Positions 1,927 to 8,393 of a stretch of 64,000 nt of DNA are shown one piece after another. Location: the IMG/VR virus record IMGVR_UViG_2740892119_000002; one strand, written 5' to 3'. The notes beneath the pieces were generated by a model. The model ran no database searches, was not told where the DNA came from, and saw nothing but the letters and a program-made list of their open reading frames with translations. Origin of the DNA: a virus (taxonomy: Duplodnaviria; Heunggongvirae; Uroviricota; Caudoviricetes). Positions within the stretch are counted from its first letter, which is position 1, and each line of letters opens with the position of its first letter. A program made the position numbers and the translations under genes.

Positions 1927-3119
1927 TAATCATCATCCCCGTATAGCTTGCGGGTAACTTCTTCGTCTTCCTCCTCGTCTTCGTCCAGGTCTTGTTCCAG
2001 CCATGGGTCGTTTGATACACCTTCAGTATCAACATCTCCATAACCGCCTGTATCAACGATATCGGCGATTTCTTCCCTACGCTGCTCAATCCACAATGCG
2101 GCATCGGCGCGGCGGTTGGCGGCCCGTTCTCGCGCAACTTTGTCCAGATCTTCAAGAGAAGGGCCACCGACGGCTGTTTGCCTTTCCTCATCATCGGTAT
2201 TGGTCTTAGGAGCACGCAGATCGGCTTTGATTTGCTCCAGCATCAGGGGCGGCACTTTCCCGCCATGCGCCTCAATGAATTCAGCTGCTTCCAGCACTGA
2301 CCAGTTATTTTCACGCTTTCGTTCGTATGCCAGCTTAACAATGCCAGCTTGCCCCATAGACAAAGCGTGCTTTTCCGCCTCCCGGCTTTCTTTTCGATAG
2401 TTATTCCGGATGCTGTAAATGGTGTTGATCAGGCTGCTTATCTGCGCGGAACAGCTGTTTAGCATGCTCGCGATACGGTATTCAGGCGGAGTACCTTCAT
2501 CATCGTCTTTTTGCTGATCGCGCATTTCCTGCACCAGGCGAATACACGTATCCCTGGCGTTCTCCAGCATAAGGAGATGAGAGAGAGACTTTTCCAGAAG
2601 AGTGGTTTCCAGAACATCAGCCCCGGACCGACGCAACATAGCGCGCGCGGCCTTCCGCGCTTCAACGTTATCTATCAGGTAATCGCCAGCTTCGAATTCA
2701 AAGCGTTCACCATCATCATCCAGGGTGTCGCGTTCCAGGCGATCACGTAAGGTCCGGTGGGCGCGGGTGATCACGTCATGATCATCAGAACGATCATTTA
2801 TGCGCTTATTCTGGCGCTTCGCGTTCTCGACTGCGGCACTGACAACAGCATTAACTCTTTGTTTTTCAGCCATTTCAGCCACAACGTGATCACCTGCACG
2901 TTGATCATTAGCGTGATCAATGATCATGCTTTTTAGTGGTTTTCTGACAGGCTTATTTGGCTTACGGCTGTCCGCTGTTCCGGTGTCTTCTTTGAATGCA
3001 CGGAGATAACGACGTGCGGTGTTTGGGTTGAGATTAAACTCGGCGGCATATTGTGCGATGGTGTAACCACCATCTCGCGCCAGGCGAGCAAAATTCTTCT
3101 TGTGATCGTCCCAGGTCAC
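1926..3119 (-). CDS. pacA: terminase small subunit / pac-recognition protein (PacA); GTG start
   Basis: 397 aa with acidic C-terminus; contains the hexamer-repeat pac site inside its coding sequence. Confidence 0.85.
2768..2926. other. pac packaging site: seven TGATCA/CGATCA hexamers (3 + 4) each containing a Dam GATC
   Basis: Hexamers at 2768, 2779, 2791 and 2887, 2902, 2914, 2921; matches the known P1 pac architecture. Confidence 0.7.
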
Positions 3120-3205
3120 TTATGCTTCCTTTCGTATAAAACTCTTTTTGACGCGAGGGTAACGAAAGTCACATGTCAAAAGGCCCGGAACGGGCAAGCA
3201 ATCAA

Positions 3206-5675: not shown

Positions 5676-6065
5676 TTAAATAACCGGACAATCATCAAAT
5701 TCCCCACTTCGGGCATCATTGATGACATGAGTGATTACACCAAAAACAGCATTACTGCCCGTGTATCCATCGTCATCTACTGGTAACGCCTCTTTCTTCC
5801 CGGTGCTTAAATCCTCCAGGTGCTGGCGCGGATACTTCCTGTATCTCTTTATGCGATATTCACCCTCCATAGCGCACACAAGCAGAGAACCATCAACCGG
5901 AGTAAGCGAGGAATCAACCACCAGCAAAGCACCCTGCAATATTCCCTCACGGTGATGGCTATCAGCTGCCCGCATGAAGTAGGTCGCTGAAGGATGTCTA
6001 ATTATCTGCTGATCAAGAGAAATTCGGCTTTCAACATAATCCGCCGCAGGAGAAGGGAAGCCCAT
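5676..6065 (-). CDS. humD: HumD, UmuD' homolog
   Basis: 129 aa S24-peptidase-like C-terminal domain; LexA box immediately upstream. Confidence 0.8.
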   Translation of the reverse strand: MGFPSPAADYVESRISLDQQIIRHPSATYFMRAADSHHREGILQGALLVVDSSLTPVDGSLLVCAMEGEYRIKRYRKYPRQHLEDLSTGKKEALPVDDDGYTGSNAVFGVITHVINDARSGEFDDCPVI

Positions 6066-6083
6066 AGCGTTTTACCTCAATGA

Positions 6084-6103
6084 TACTGTTTATTCATACA
6101 GTA
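6084..6103. promoter_or_regulatory. LexA (SOS) box TACTGTTTATTCATACAGTA upstream of humD
   Basis: CTGT-N8-ACAG palindrome 19 bp upstream of the humD start. Confidence 0.7.
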
Positions 6104-6188
6104 TACATTGAAAAGGCATAGTTTGTGAAAGCGGGGTTTGTAGGCGCGCCACGCTGGGGGCTAATCACATTTCTCCCCCATCTTGCCG

Positions 6189-6461
6189 TTATTTTTTTGG
6201 TGCATCCTCGTTCTGATACACCGGATCGCTCCCTTTTGGCAACTGGAGGCTTAACTGCCGATAGTGCCGTAACCGTTCCATGAAATAGGTGCGCAGATTC
6301 TCTGGTTGCTCGCGGGCTACCTGTTCAGCTATGACAGGTATGTTCAATCGCTCTTTGTACGCCACACCGCTGGCAGCCAGATCAACGTTAACCTTATCCC
6401 GTTCTTCCTGACTTTTAGCTGCAATATTCCAATCGTGCATATCAAATCCCATCCAGAACAA
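6189..6461 (-). CDS. hot: Hot, homolog of DNA polymerase III theta subunit; true start probably the internal Met (MHDWNI)
   Basis: [43 protein letters not shown] closely resembles E. coli HolE. Confidence 0.8.
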
Positions 6462-6889
6462 TTGCGTAACGACTATTATTTAACCAGCAAAGTAACTTTT
6501 AATTTTTTTTCTTTTCCCATTGATTTTTGTGCACAGCTTATCTGCCTTGCCGTGCGCAGAATCAACTTTTTTCTTCCTGATTTATCCACAAAGTTATGCA
6601 CTTGCAAGAGGGCCATTTTCTAAATATTGTGATGTTTCACAAATGAAATGAATTTTGATTAATGAAGATAAGGAGAAAATTTGAGATGCAATCATGACGT
6701 TAATAGATAGGGTCTGCATTACAGACCCCATCCGCATCAAGGAATTAGCCGTTCCCTGATGTTGTTCCGAAAACATGTGCCGTAAGCTCACGTTAACGAC
6801 TTTCTTTCACCGAATCCAACTATATAGGGGTTGGGTTTCTACGTCAACGTGAGCAAGTGCTCCTTTACATTTGACAAGGAACCACCTTA

Positions 6890-7027
6890 ATGACTGCTTT
6901 TTTTCAGTTCCTGAGTGCATTTTTAGATGCGCCTGTTATTAGCCAGATTCTGGCGATCATCCTCATCATCGTTTTGATTTTGCTTTTAAGGTCAGTAAAA
7001 AATGGAATTATGCACTGGCTTACTTAA
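6890..7027 (+). CDS. 45-aa hydrophobic peptide MTAFFQFLSAFLDAPVISQILAIILIIVLILLLRSVKNGIMHWLT; candidate small membrane toxin or membrane protein
   Basis: AGGAA Shine-Dalgarno 8 nt upstream; lies on the opposite strand in a 640-bp AT-rich gap between minus-strand genes; below the ORF-track size cutoff. Confidence 0.35.
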   Translation: MTAFFQFLSAFLDAPVISQILAIILIIVLILLLRSVKNGIMHWLT

Positions 7028-7101
7028 TGTTCAGTGAAACATTAAAATCTCCTTGATGTGGAAACAATCATTTTCTGTATGTGCTGGTGGGTACCTGTAG
7101 T

Positions 7102-7464
7102 TCAGCTTTCGTTGGCATTTAACTTCGTCTTTGCTTTCTCCACCAGCAACTTCCAGATGCCTATTTCATTAGCAGCCGCCTTGATGGCGGCATAAAAAGC
7201 ATCTTGCTGATCGTAACGCTGAATCTGTTTTTTCAGTTTTGCCTCCACCAATTTAATTTCATTACGTGCTTTCTGAAGCCGCAGCGCCGCCCGGTTACGT
7301 CTGTTCTTGTATAGCGCGTTAATCTCTGATAATTGCTTTAATTTACCAGCCTGACTGCGGATTATCGCCTCTCTGACTTCTGCCGTGCGTCTCATCTGAT
7401 CTCTTAAGAGTTCACCGTTTTCGATAATTCTTTCAAGGTGTTTGATGTGATCTGCAACTCTCAT
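7102..7464 (-). CDS. coiled-coil hypothetical protein (120 aa)
   Basis: ORF with ATGA overlap to the upstream gene; heptad-rich, K/R/E-rich. Confidence 0.5.
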   Translation of the reverse strand: MRVADHIKHLERIIENGELLRDQMRRTAEVREAIIRSQAGKLKQLSEINALYKNRRNRAALRLQKARNEIKLVEAKLKKQIQRYDQQDAFYAAIKAAANEIGIWKLLVEKAKTKLNANES

Positions 7465-8393
7465 ACTTCACCCTCGCTTGTATCGCCAGCATCCACCAGC
7501 GGCAATAAAGCCCTGGCCATCTTATGAACCAATAGTGCATCAATAATGCCAAGCGTATGCCCCGGCTTAATGTTTAATGCCGCCTCAAGGTGACACCTTT
7601 CCAGGCCACTTTTCTCGGCTTGTTTATGATGATCTGGTGTAATAACGTCGCCCAAAACACGGCTAATTCTTTCTCGTAATTGCTGGGTGCCAGCACACTT
7701 GATCGCTGTATCGTGGAGACGGTTAACCAGTTCGCGATAAACATGCGGCTTAATTCGGATACGTTCACCGGTGACGCCCTTTCCTGGTGCTGGCACCGAA
7801 CTATCCGGAATATCCGGATAGTTGCCAGCCTCGTAAGCTACCCGCAGCCAGTGCATGAATGTTTCAGTGGACACACAACCACAGTCCACATCGATTTTCC
7901 CGCGTTGCTGTTCCAGCCATTGCCCAAAATCCAACCTGTAAGTCTTACTTTCAAGTTCATCACCATTGAACTCGACTTTCTGCGACGCTATGAGAGCTGA
8001 TTCGTATTGTTCGCGAGTGACAACTGACTGGTATTCATCGCTATCAAGGTCACCAATTGGAAGCTCAATCTCACAACAAAAATTGCGCCCAAAGAAAGTG
8101 TCTTTTTTGTGGTCTGAGCCAAAAGCAAAAGTCGCGCATGGTGCCATTAAATTGACACTGGGTAGGTAACAATAACTCATTCCATCAGGCCACCCACCGC
8201 ACTTAGGCAGTTCCTTCACTAACAAGTCGATAAACTTCATTTTTTTATCATCTTTGCAAGCCGCCAAAGCCATTTGGGCAAGTGCCAATACTTCATCTGC
8301 CGTATATCCAGCACCGTGACCATACATTTCGATACGGGAAATAATCTCTGATATACGCTCTTCAGTGATTCTGGTCATTTCTTTTTGCGCCAT
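7461..8393 (-). CDS. hypothetical protein (310 aa), Cys-rich central region
   Basis: Long ORF translationally coupled to neighbours; no recognisable motif. Confidence 0.55.
   Translation of the reverse strand: MAQKEMTRITEERISEIISRIEMYGHGAGYTADEVLALAQMALAACKDDKKMKFIDLLVKELPKCGGWPDGMSYCYLPSVNLMAPCATFAFGSDHKKDTFFGRNFCCEIELPIGDLDSDEYQSVVTREQYESALIASQKVEFNGDELESKTYRLDFGQWLEQQRGKIDVDCGCVSTETFMHWLRVAYEAGNYPDIPDSSVPAPGKGVTGERIRIKPHVYRELVNRLHDTAIKCAGTQQLRERISRVLGDVITPDHHKQAEKSGLERCHLEAALNIKPGHTLGIIDALLVHKMARALLPLVDAGDTSEGEV

What the first reader, a model, noticed from the sequence alone, without database searches (positions are those of the whole stretch)
6462..7100. AT-rich 640-bp gap containing an opposite-strand 45-aa hydrophobic ORF with a long structured leader
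Between hot and the next minus-strand operon there is no annotated gene, but the plus strand encodes MTAFFQFLSAFLDAPVISQILAIILIIVLILLLRSVKNGIMHWLT behind a good SD, preceded by about 170 nt containing a strong hairpin (GGGTCTGCATTACAGACCC at about 6718-6736) and a DnaA-box-like TTATCCACA at about 6582. Small single-TM peptides with long folded leaders in otherwise empty intergenic regions are the hallmark of type I toxin-antitoxin loci or of small membrane regulators.
Basis: seen in the sequence. Interest (0 to 1): 0.5.

Follow-up and report, generated by a model that had tools for sequence, protein, structure and literature searches.

The report
Antisense-controlled small membrane peptide cassette, P1
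The "empty" gap upstream of the phage P1 hot gene holds a conserved 610-bp cassette: a promoter copied from the host nrdA gene, a folded leader with a likely antisense RNA gene, and a 45-residue membrane peptide. It is built like a type I toxin-antitoxin locus, but neither transcription nor toxicity has been shown.

Summary
The window is a P1-like (IncY) phage-plasmid. The 45-aa ORF (6890-7027, +), its Shine-Dalgarno (SD) site, the hairpin (really 6710-6728) and the DnaA box (6582-6590) all exist.

The gap is not unannotated. The P1 reference places upfM, upfN and upfO on the minus strand. NCBI's PGAP pipeline calls the plus-strand ORF instead (WP_000123562.1).

Three lineages are available: P1 about 99%, P7 about 92%, and a third about 77% identical. 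Across them the upf frames are broken by indels and stops. The 45-aa frame keeps its start, stop, length and SD (dN/dS 0.18-0.45).

The best-conserved part is non-coding: 6665-6855 is 91% identical in the third lineage, against 77% for the ORF. It contains an invariant minus-strand sigma-70 promoter (TTGACG-17-TATAGT, 6847..6819). An RNA starting there folds into the same three hairpins in all lineages (z -5.3, -5.4, -3.8). Wobble pairs and substitutions favour the minus strand.

The plus-strand promoter is a captured copy of the E. coli nrdA promoter with its two DnaA boxes.

Best reading: a cis-antisense, type I toxin-antitoxin-like cassette encoding a new peptide family, confidence about 0.4. 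Transcription, toxicity and RNA ends are untested, and covariation power is low. It occurs only in P1-like elements. Moderately interesting.

The parts
6475..6498 (-). Late promoter LPhot of hot (-10 and -22 box). It is the left neighbour of the cassette, not part of its mechanism.
   Evidence: P1 reference annotation transferred by alignment (L001 1576-1599 = window 6475-6498).
6506..6620 (+). Segment homologous to the regulatory DNA upstream of E. coli nrdA (-238 to -124 relative to the nrdA ATG).
   Evidence: blastn against the E. coli chromosome (L060): window 83.5% over 115 nt, P7 lineage 93.7% over 142 nt, third lineage 78% over 116 nt, D6-like plasmids 87% over 120 nt. Annotated as 'nrdA-like promoter' in M95666.
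6582..6602 (+). Two adjacent DnaA boxes: TTATCCACA (6582-6590) and TTATGCACT (6594-6602).
   Evidence: Read directly. Both boxes are invariant in all lineages and identical to the E. coli nrdA sequence.
6602..6630 (+). Predicted nrdA-type promoter TTGCAA-17 nt-TATTGT. The predicted start is about 6636-6639.
   Evidence: Positional homologue of E. coli nrdA TTGCAA-17-TATCTT. Kept as TTGCAA-17-TACTGT in the third lineage. It matches the consensus at only 8 of 12 positions, below the scan threshold. Function is inferred.
6670..6697 (+). Conserved strong SD (AAGGAG) followed by AUG at 6686 and a stop after 3 codons (MQS*). In the third lineage this is AUG-UAA.
   Evidence: It lies in an unpaired stretch of the predicted plus-strand fold. 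Its role as a standby site or start-stop element is speculative.
6698..6811 (-). Predicted antisense RNA of about 114 nt. It has a free 12-nt purine-rich 5' tail (GGUGAAAGAAAG) and three hairpins at 6799-6767, 6761-6735 and 6733-6705. The 3' end is uncertain.
   Evidence: Minimum free energy -43.8, -43.2 and -37.5 kcal/mol with z -5.3, -5.4 and -3.8, and the same fold, in the three lineages. The plus-strand copy is 11-14 kcal/mol weaker and its fold varies. 97.9% of structure cells are paired, with one compensatory pair (U-A to C-G) and two G.U/A-U switches. Four G.U pairs would be A.C mismatches on the plus strand.
6819..6847 (-). Sigma-70 promoter for the antisense RNA: -35 TTGACG (6847-6842), 17-nt spacer, -10 TATAGT (6824-6819).
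   Evidence: 10 of 12 consensus matches. It is the same site as 'PupfN' predicted in the P1 reference. Both hexamers are invariant in all three lineages.
6786..6854 (+). Large hairpin of the plus-strand leader. Its internal loop (6799-6812) is complementary to the 5' tail of the antisense RNA. As DNA it carries the antisense promoter.
   Evidence: 13-nt inverted repeat, 92% complementary. -25.7 kcal/mol, z -5.5 on the plus strand. The inner stem has a U.G pair that would be a mismatch on the minus strand (read).
6876..6880 (+). SD sequence of the 45-aa ORF: AAGGA here, GAGGA in the third lineage.
   Evidence: It is kept although the surrounding 6855-6889 is the most variable part of the leader.
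6890..7027 (+). Gene for a 45-aa hydrophobic peptide: one transmembrane helix (about residues 15-33), a basic stretch after it, GRAVY 1.6.
   Evidence: Intact and 45 aa in all lineages with no indels. dN/dS 0.45 and 0.18. Called by PGAP. 227 of 228 plasmids align over at least 80% of the peptide.

Best explanation
Positions 6484-7095 form a self-contained cassette of P1-like phage-plasmids that is built, and probably works, like a cis-encoded type I toxin-antitoxin locus.

Proposed mechanism:
1. A promoter copied from the host nrdA gene, with its two DnaA boxes, starts a plus-strand mRNA at about 6637.
2. That mRNA has a leader of about 250 nt and encodes a 45-aa single-pass membrane peptide (6890-7027).
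3. Inside the leader, a conserved convergent sigma-70 promoter (6847..6819, minus strand) makes a three-hairpin RNA of about 115 nt. This RNA is fully complementary to the leader.
4. The free 5' tail of the antisense RNA meets the internal loop of the large leader hairpin (6786-6854). Duplex formation, together with collision between the convergent promoters, then keeps peptide synthesis low, through RNase III cleavage or by blocking an upstream ribosome-loading site.
5. Peptide output would rise when the nrdA-type promoter is induced, or when the antisense RNA is lost.

Shown here: the conserved ORF, the conserved promoter hexamers, the conserved and stable RNA fold, the host origin of the plus-strand promoter, and the non-conservation of upfM, upfN and upfO.

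Inferred only: that both RNAs are made, that they pair in vivo, that the peptide is toxic, and how the promoter responds to host signals.
For: - ORF: open, 45 aa and free of indels in three lineages, with indels directly flanking it. SD and start are retained. dN/dS 0.45 (11 synonymous, 20 non-synonymous) against the third lineage and 0.18 against P7. PGAP calls it.
- Competing minus-strand ORFs: upfN and upfO are frameshifted in P7. upfM and upfN are frameshifted with stops, and upfO is interrupted by a stop, in the third lineage.
- The non-coding core is the most conserved part: 91% identical, against hot 88%, the ORF 77% and the promoter part 80%. This is what two overlapping RNA genes would produce.
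- The antisense promoter matches 10 of 12 consensus positions and its hexamers are invariant.
- The minus-strand RNA has the same three-hairpin fold in all lineages (z -5.3, -5.4, -3.8) and is 11-14 kcal/mol more stable than its complement. There is one compensatory pair and two wobble switches. The hairpin-2 loop carries 3 changes while nine of its ten stem pairs never vary (only the outermost opens in the third lineage). By my own count, 9 of 15 variable columns are unpaired.
- The cassette is autonomous. It is kept when hot is replaced (P7 lineage) and when pmgV is replaced (third lineage). It is absent next to hot in other phages.
- D6-like phage-plasmids carry, at the same slot and convergent with the same captured promoter, a different module with the features of a dinQ/agrB- or zorO/orzO-type type I locus.
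- In the P1vir RNA-seq table, the signal falls from pmgV to upfN and again to upfO. This argues against read-through from this region into hot (PMC8201110 supplement).
Against: - No transcription data resolve the strands, and the P1vir RNA-seq signal over the region is low.
- The antisense RNA has no canonical U-tract terminator. The terminator scan did not report it and the tail after the extended stem is AUUAACG.
- No terminator follows the ORF.
- The antisense RNA ends 65 nt upstream of the ORF's SD. The weak SD hairpin (-4.8 kcal/mol, z about 0) is not conserved.
- Covariation is statistically weak with only four distinct sequences: 126 of 500 shuffles do as well.
- The plus-strand promoter matches only 8 of 12 consensus positions.
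- There is no similarity to any known type I toxin or antitoxin family.
- dN/dS of 0.45 indicates only mild constraint.
- Disruptions of the ORF are rare, roughly 1% of plasmids. This neither supports nor excludes toxicity.
Confidence: 0.4

Rival explanations
1. It is a real but non-toxic small membrane protein gene, for example a prophage-encoded regulator, an exclusion factor or a membrane-complex accessory. Expression would be tuned by the long leader and the nrdA-type promoter. The minus-strand RNA, if made, would be an ordinary antisense regulator rather than an antidote.
For: - It shares the same ORF, leader and promoter conservation as the main model.
- The SD is not tightly sequestered.
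- Natural disruptions of the ORF are rare.
- The upfM-upfO region is dispensable for lytic growth (PMC10695390).
- No known toxin family matches.
Against: - The size, the single transmembrane helix followed by basic residues, the cis-antisense layout and the cassette-like mobility are those of type I loci.
- A type I-like module occupies the same slot in D6-like elements.
Confidence: 0.3
2. Only the structured minus-strand RNA matters. It would be a trans-acting small RNA, a long 5' leader of hot, or the 3' end of the pmgTUV transcript. The 45-aa ORF would then be open by chance and not translated.
For: - The RNA core is far better conserved than the ORF.
- Wobble asymmetry favours the minus strand.
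- dN/dS of 0.45 is only mild constraint.
- The plus-strand promoter is weak by consensus.
Against: - The ORF keeps its start, SD, stop and exact length with no indels across 31 substitutions, while indels lie 10 nt before and 1 nt after it.
- Amino-acid changes are conservative and keep the hydrophobic profile.
- The core is retained in P7-type elements that lack hot.
- hot genes of other phages lack it.
- The RNA-seq signal drops before hot.
Confidence: 0.13
3. The leader is a cis-acting sensor on the plus-strand mRNA alone, such as a riboswitch, a thermosensor or a protein-binding leader. No antisense RNA would be involved.
For: - The plus strand also folds significantly (z -2.4 for the whole leader, -5.5 for the 6786-6856 hairpin).
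- One U.G pair in that hairpin favours the plus strand.
Against: - No Rfam family matches, even at E up to 10.
- Left of 6812 the plus-strand fold is weaker and differs between lineages.
- An invariant 10-of-12 promoter pointing the other way sits inside the leader.
Confidence: 0.08
4. The P1 reference annotation is right: upfM, upfN and upfO on the minus strand are the genes of this region.
For: - They are annotated in NC_005856.
- upfM has its own PHROG family built from P1-like entries.
Against: - Across the P7 and third lineages, all three frames are broken by frameshifts or stops.
- No family matches beyond self-hits.
- PGAP does not call them.
Confidence: 0.02

Closest known systems
Cis-encoded type I toxin-antitoxin loci of enterobacteria with the antisense RNA in the 5' leader (ldr/rdl; hok/sok of plasmid R1)
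   Same: - A small hydrophobic single-helix peptide of under 60 aa.
- A long structured 5' leader.
- A short, highly structured antisense RNA, made from a strong constitutive-looking promoter inside the leader and fully complementary to it.
- Carried on a plasmid or prophage as an autonomous cassette.
   Different: - No sequence or profile similarity to Hok, Ldr or any other toxin family, or to Sok or Rdl.
- No overlapping translational-coupling reading frame like mok, only a 3-codon mini-ORF.
- No conserved 5'-3' fold-back structure was found.
- The antisense RNA lacks a canonical terminator.
- Toxicity is untested.
Type I loci in which the small RNA acts far upstream of the ribosome binding site (tisB/istR-1, zorO/orzO, dinQ/agrB)
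   Same: - The predicted RNA-RNA contact lies at least 65 nt upstream of the toxin SD.
- There is an unstructured, SD-like upstream site (6668-6690) that could serve as a ribosome standby site.
- The promoter context is linked to DNA replication and damage. The locus sits next to humD, which is LexA-regulated according to the P1 annotation.
   Different: - Here the RNA is a true cis-antisense with about 114 nt of complementarity, not a divergent gene with an 18-30 nt match.
- The promoter is nrdA-like with DnaA boxes, not LexA-controlled.
- The D6-like relatives, not this window, carry the module that resembles dinQ/agrB (AgrB model 27.6 bits, below the gathering score of 40).
E. coli nrdAB promoter region (two DnaA boxes upstream of the -35)
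   Same: 115-142 nt of sequence homology. Both DnaA boxes and the -35 TTGCAA are identical, and the spacing to the -10 position is the same 17 nt.
   Different: - Homology stops at the -10, so the transcribed part is unrelated to nrdA.
- Regulation by DnaA, Fis or NrdR is inferred from homology only.
- The resemblance was already noted in GenBank M95666 and in the P1 genome annotation.

Membership tests
Type I toxin-antitoxin system (generic definition) | Small (under 60 aa) hydrophobic, membrane-targeted peptide gene | tested here: met
   45 aa, GRAVY 1.6, best 19-residue window 3.08 at residues 15-33, followed by R34 and K37. The frame is conserved in three lineages.
Type I toxin-antitoxin system (generic definition) | An antisense RNA gene with its own promoter, complementary to the toxin mRNA | tested here: inconclusive
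   There is an invariant 10-of-12 sigma-70 promoter and a stable, conserved three-hairpin fold. There is no canonical terminator and no transcript data. It is complementary to the mRNA only if that mRNA starts at the nrdA-like promoter.
Type I toxin-antitoxin system (generic definition) | The peptide is toxic when over-produced, and the RNA prevents its synthesis | not testable with these tools
   This needs induction and rescue experiments.
Known type I toxin families (Hok/Gef, Ldr, Fst, Ibs, TisB, ShoB, DinQ, ZorO and others) | Profile or sequence similarity of the peptide | tested here: not met
   - Pfam, NCBIfam and PHROGs give no hit better than E = 0.056.
- phmmer against 1.84 billion representatives finds only 4 proteins, all variants of this same ORF.
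- The word-indexed search finds 2.
Known antitoxin or small-RNA families in Rfam (Sok, Rdl, IstR, OrzO-P, AgrB, Sib, SymR, C4 and others) | Covariance-model match | tested here: not met
   cmscan of 5900-7600 at E up to 10 gives only noise of 18 bits or less, far below the gathering scores.
hok/sok family | Overlapping mok-like reading frame coupled to the toxin, and a 5'-3' fold-back of the mRNA | tested here: not met
   - No overlapping ORF exists, only a 3-codon mini-ORF 190 nt upstream.
- The 21-codon frame at 6695-6760 changes by about 7-8 non-synonymous against 1 synonymous substitution, by my own count.
- The inverted repeat inside the ORF is not clearly kept in the third lineage.
nrdA-type DnaA-box promoter | Sequence homology to the E. 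coli nrdA regulatory region, including both DnaA boxes and the -35 | tested here: met
   83.5% over 115 nt (window) and 93.7% over 142 nt (P7 lineage), with the boxes and -35 identical.
nrdA-type DnaA-box promoter | Promoter activity and control by DnaA or NrdR | not testable with these tools
   Inferred from homology only.

The most novel reading that the evidence does not exclude
P1-like and D6-like phage-plasmids may keep, next to their SOS and replication genes (humD, hot), a slot in which interchangeable type I toxin cassettes are set head-on against a promoter stolen from the host nrdA gene. Peptide release would then be coupled to the host's DnaA, dNTP or replication status. This would be a replication-stress-sensing addiction or abortive-response module, and a second, so far unrecognised, killer system in phage P1 besides phd-doc.
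Probability: 0.15. Interest if true: 0.65.

Novelty: new member of a known kind. Interest (0 to 1): 0.45.

Why it matters
P1 is a reference phage and the prototype of phage-plasmids that spread resistance genes in E. coli and Salmonella. This cassette is present in 215 of 5426 complete E. coli genomes.

If the model holds:
- Three 'unknown protein function' genes of the P1 reference (upfM, upfN, upfO) would be replaced by one small-protein gene plus an antisense RNA.
- P1 would carry a second, RNA-controlled maintenance or stress module.
- It would give a clear example of a mobile element wiring a host cell-cycle promoter (nrdA, with DnaA boxes) to a membrane peptide.

If the peptide is harmless, the result is still a corrected annotation and a new small-protein family under antisense control.

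Tried and rejected
- Family searches of the peptide and the three upf ORFs (Pfam, PHROGs, NCBIfam) found nothing informative. upfM only hits a PHROG made of P1-like entries.
- Rfam at a permissive threshold gave only noise.
- Protein searches recover only variants of this same ORF: 2 hits in the word-indexed search and 4 by exhaustive phmmer.
- The search for related loci with the peptide alignment in genome contigs found no relative.
- A degenerate hairpin-2 pattern in genome contigs gave 120 random hits. The single real one is a 221-bp P7-type fragment in an Acinetobacter assembly, probably contamination.
- Distant blastn in the phage, plasmid and E. coli collections found only three lineages, all P1-like. 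Covariation power is therefore low.
- No paralogue of the region or the peptide exists elsewhere in the window.
- No C1 operator lies in the region.
- 'Leader of hot' was considered and set aside.
- An SD-sequestering hairpin and a long-range pairing within the ORF were not conserved or not significant.
- A 21-codon frame in the leader (6695-6760) was rejected as coding because its changes are nearly all non-synonymous.
- A promoter between the antisense RNA start and the ORF was looked for by eye. Only a weak TACATT was found, without a -35.
- Literature searches found no description of this locus as a small RNA, small protein or toxin-antitoxin system. The 2004 P1 genome paper is not held.

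Full report
**Identity of the window and the region**

The window is a P1-like (IncY) phage-plasmid. Its ORFs include Doc, Phd, HumD and Hot. Positions 6400-7150 are 98.8% identical to phage P1 NC_005856 at 85868-86619, on the reverse strand. The finding lies between hot (6189-6461, minus) and pmgV (7102-7464, minus).

The statement that nothing is annotated here does not hold for public records.
- The P1 reference places three short minus-strand ORFs here: upfM, upfN and upfO. It also marks the late promoter LPhot and three predicted sigma-70 promoters.
- GenBank M95666 marks an 'nrdA-like promoter' and a DnaA box pointing rightwards.
- NCBI's PGAP annotates none of the upf ORFs.

**Check of the observation**

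- The ORF (6890-7027), its AAGGA SD 9 nt upstream, and the DnaA box TTATCCACA (6582-6590) are as described.
- The hairpin GGGTCTGCATTACAGACCC exists but lies at 6710-6728, with an extended stem at 6706-6732.
- GC content is 0.35-0.40, against 0.47-0.52 in the flanking genes.

**Comparative data**

Searches of phage, plasmid and complete E. coli collections find the region only in P1-like elements of Escherichia, Salmonella and Shigella.
- It is in 228 plasmids.
- It is in 215 of 5426 complete E. coli genomes, and all places but one are on plasmids.
- There are three sequence lineages: P1-type (99-100%), P7-type (about 92%) and a third type (about 77%).
- No further lineage turned up in IMG/VR, in the GTDB species genomes, or by exhaustive HMMER search with the peptide.

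**Which reading frames are real?**

Across the three lineages the plus-strand ORF keeps its ATG, stop, length of 45 codons and SD. It has no indel, although 1-19 nt indels occur at 6653, 6760, 6880 (10 nt before the ATG), 7030 (just after the stop), 7045 and 7060.
- Against the third lineage there are 11 synonymous and 20 non-synonymous differences (dN/dS 0.45).
- Against P7 the counts are 3 and 2 (dN/dS 0.18). Against P1 they are 2 and 0.
- Replacements are conservative: I/V/L/F, R/K, D/N.

This is mild but real purifying selection, of the kind seen in small transmembrane peptides.

The minus-strand ORFs behave differently. upfN and upfO are frameshifted in P7. In the third lineage upfM and upfN are frameshifted with stops, and upfO carries a stop. 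I therefore regard the three upf genes as annotation artefacts.

The peptide has one strongly hydrophobic helix (residues about 15-33) followed by R34 and K37. It has no detectable relatives outside this locus.

A few natural variants have altered C-termini, through frameshifts in A-runs or an IS1 insertion at the 3' end. However, 227 of 228 plasmids align over at least 80% of the peptide.

**The non-coding core**

The best-conserved part of the whole neighbourhood is not a gene. Positions 6665-6855 are 91% identical in the third lineage. The comparison values are 88% for hot, 77% for the ORF and 80% for the promoter part.

Inside this core lies the best sigma-70 match of the region. It is on the minus strand: TTGACG, 17 nt, TATAGT at 6847..6819, matching 10 of 12 consensus positions. 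This is the site the P1 annotators called PupfN. Both hexamers are invariant.

An RNA starting about 7 nt downstream, at G6811, has these properties.
- It folds with a free 12-nt purine-rich 5' tail and three hairpins.
- The same fold is predicted independently for the P1-, P7- and third-lineage sequences: -43.8, -43.2 and -37.5 kcal/mol, with z -5.3, -5.4 and -3.8.
- The complementary plus-strand segment is 11-14 kcal/mol weaker, and its fold differs between lineages.
- Four stems contain a G.U pair that would be an A.C mismatch on the plus strand.
- The T6731C change in P1 and P7 converts an A-U pair to G.U on the minus strand only.
- Hairpin 1 has a compensatory U-A to C-G change.
- The loop of hairpin 2 carries three changes, while nine of its ten stem pairs never vary; only the outermost C-G pair opens in the third lineage.
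- In the third lineage the outer stem of hairpin 1 re-forms in a shifted register.

With only four distinct sequences the formal covariation test is not significant: 126 of 500 shuffles do as well. The case therefore rests on stability, fold conservation, strand asymmetry and the placement of substitutions.

Right of 6812, which is upstream of that start, a large hairpin (6786-6854) is more stable on the plus strand (-25.7 kcal/mol, z -5.5). One of its U.G pairs fits only the plus strand. Its internal loop is the complement of the antisense RNA's free 5' tail. That is the usual geometry for fast antisense recognition.

**The plus-strand promoter**

Positions 6506-6620 are homologous to the DNA upstream of E. 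coli nrdA: 83.5% over 115 nt here and 93.7% over 142 nt in the P7 lineage.
- Both DnaA boxes and the -35 TTGCAA are identical to the E. coli sequence.
- Homology ends at the -10, where P1 has TATTGT and E. coli has TATCTT at the same 17-nt spacing.

This is a captured host promoter, and earlier annotators had already noted the resemblance. It would start an mRNA at about 6637, giving a leader of about 250 nt that contains the full complement of the antisense RNA.

The stretch 6631-6664 is variable and has a 19-nt insertion in the third lineage. It is followed by an invariant strong SD (AAGGAG) with an AUG and a stop after three codons, or AUG-UAA in the third lineage. This could be a ribosome standby or start-stop element, but that is speculation.

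**Autonomy of the cassette**

The block of about 6484-7095 stays together in three different contexts.
- In P1 it lies between hot and pmgV.
- In P7-type elements hot is replaced.
- In the third lineage pmgV is replaced, and a type I restriction-modification gene follows.

Homologues of hot and humD in many other phages lack it.

In a published P1vir RNA-seq table, the signal drops from pmgV (log fold change 8.4 at 10 min and 10.8 at 30 min) to upfN (4.9 and 8.2), and further to upfO (1.5 and 5.3), before rising again at hot (6.3 and 9.6) (PMC8201110 supplement). Transcripts of this region therefore do not simply read into hot.

The region is dispensable for lytic growth (PMC10695390).

**Context from relatives**

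D6-like phage-plasmids keep the captured nrdA promoter at the same place, next to humD, but carry different DNA downstream. That DNA contains three elements.
- A minus-strand small-RNA-like gene with a strong terminator. It gives a weak match to the AgrB antitoxin model (27.6 bits, gathering score 40).
- An 18-bp complementarity between that RNA's 5' end and a site 77 nt upstream of a small ORF.
- A 27-aa hydrophobic ORF followed by a terminator.

This is the layout of dinQ/agrB- or zorO/orzO-type type I loci. It suggests that this slot, convergent with the captured promoter, hosts interchangeable modules of this kind. The support is circumstantial.

**Interpretation**

The most economical model is a cis-antisense, type I toxin-antitoxin-like cassette, as laid out in the Best explanation section. 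I put about 0.7 on the ORF being a real small-protein gene. I put about 0.55 on the antisense RNA being made, and about 0.4 on the pair working as a toxin and antidote.

Points against the model:
- No transcript data resolve the strands.
- Neither RNA has a canonical terminator.
- There is no conserved SD-sequestering structure.
- The RNA contact site lies 65 nt upstream of the SD.
- No known toxin or antitoxin family matches.

The main rival is a harmless small membrane protein under antisense and leader control. The sequence alone cannot separate the two.

**Novelty and score**

I found no publication describing this locus as a small RNA, small protein or toxin-antitoxin system. The ORF is already in RefSeq as a hypothetical protein, and the promoter resemblance is already in GenBank.

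New here are the comparative argument, the rejection of upfM, upfN and upfO, the antisense RNA candidate and the cassette view. If confirmed, it is a new member, with a new peptide family, of a well-known kind of system. Interest is moderate at 0.45.

Noticed in passing
L059 (NZ_CP020118.1, reverse complement) 2590-3160: D6-like phage-plasmids keep the captured nrdA-like promoter but carry a different module downstream.
- A minus-strand small-RNA-like gene at 2785->2704, with a weak Rfam AgrB match (27.6 bits, gathering score 40) and a strong terminator.
- Its 5' end is complementary over 18 bp to 2944-2961, which lies 77 nt upstream of a 27-aa hydrophobic ORF (3038-3121, MVNLLFKIVPPMFAIIKAIIEYVNQRP).
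- A terminator follows the ORF.
This looks like an unannotated dinQ/agrB- or zorO/orzO-type type I locus.
   Followed up: partly
window 6066-6188: The humD-hot spacer is 123 nt here, against 754 nt in P1, where it holds lxr. This element therefore lacks lxr. Third-lineage plasmids have a DNA-binding-protein gene in that slot.
   Followed up: no
window 6670-6697: An invariant strong SD (AAGGAG) is followed by AUG and a stop after 3 codons (MQS*). In the third lineage it is AUG-UAA. It lies in the otherwise non-coding leader and could be a start-stop or ribosome standby element.
   Followed up: partly
window 6506-6620; L005 (P7) and L060 (E. coli chromosome): The P7 lineage is much closer to the E. 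coli nrdA upstream region (93.7% over 142 nt) than the P1 lineage is (83.5% over 115 nt). This suggests repeated or recent recombination with the host chromosome at this promoter.
   Followed up: partly
window 6890-7027 homologues: P0001-P0004, L061 (pLKSZ04), L263 (NZ_AP026785.1): Rare natural variants keep the transmembrane part of the peptide but have a changed C-terminus. The causes are frameshifts in A-runs, an unrelated tail after residue 31 or 36, or an IS1 insertion at the 3' end of the ORF. It is unclear whether these are sequencing errors or selected attenuations.
   Followed up: partly
window 6905-6924 and 6998-7017: A 20-nt inverted repeat, 75% complementary, joins the 5' and 3' parts of the ORF. 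It is not clearly conserved in the third lineage.
   Followed up: partly
L216 (Acinetobacter idrijaensis MII contig_42, 221 bp): A 221-bp contig in an Acinetobacter assembly is a P7-type copy of window 6565-6774. It is most likely contamination of that assembly.
   Followed up: yes
window 6529-6580: A hairpin (TGTGCACAG...GTGCGCA) is followed about 8 nt later by a T-run on the plus strand. It lies within the nrdA-homologous segment and may terminate rightward transcription entering from the hot/lxr side.
   Followed up: no
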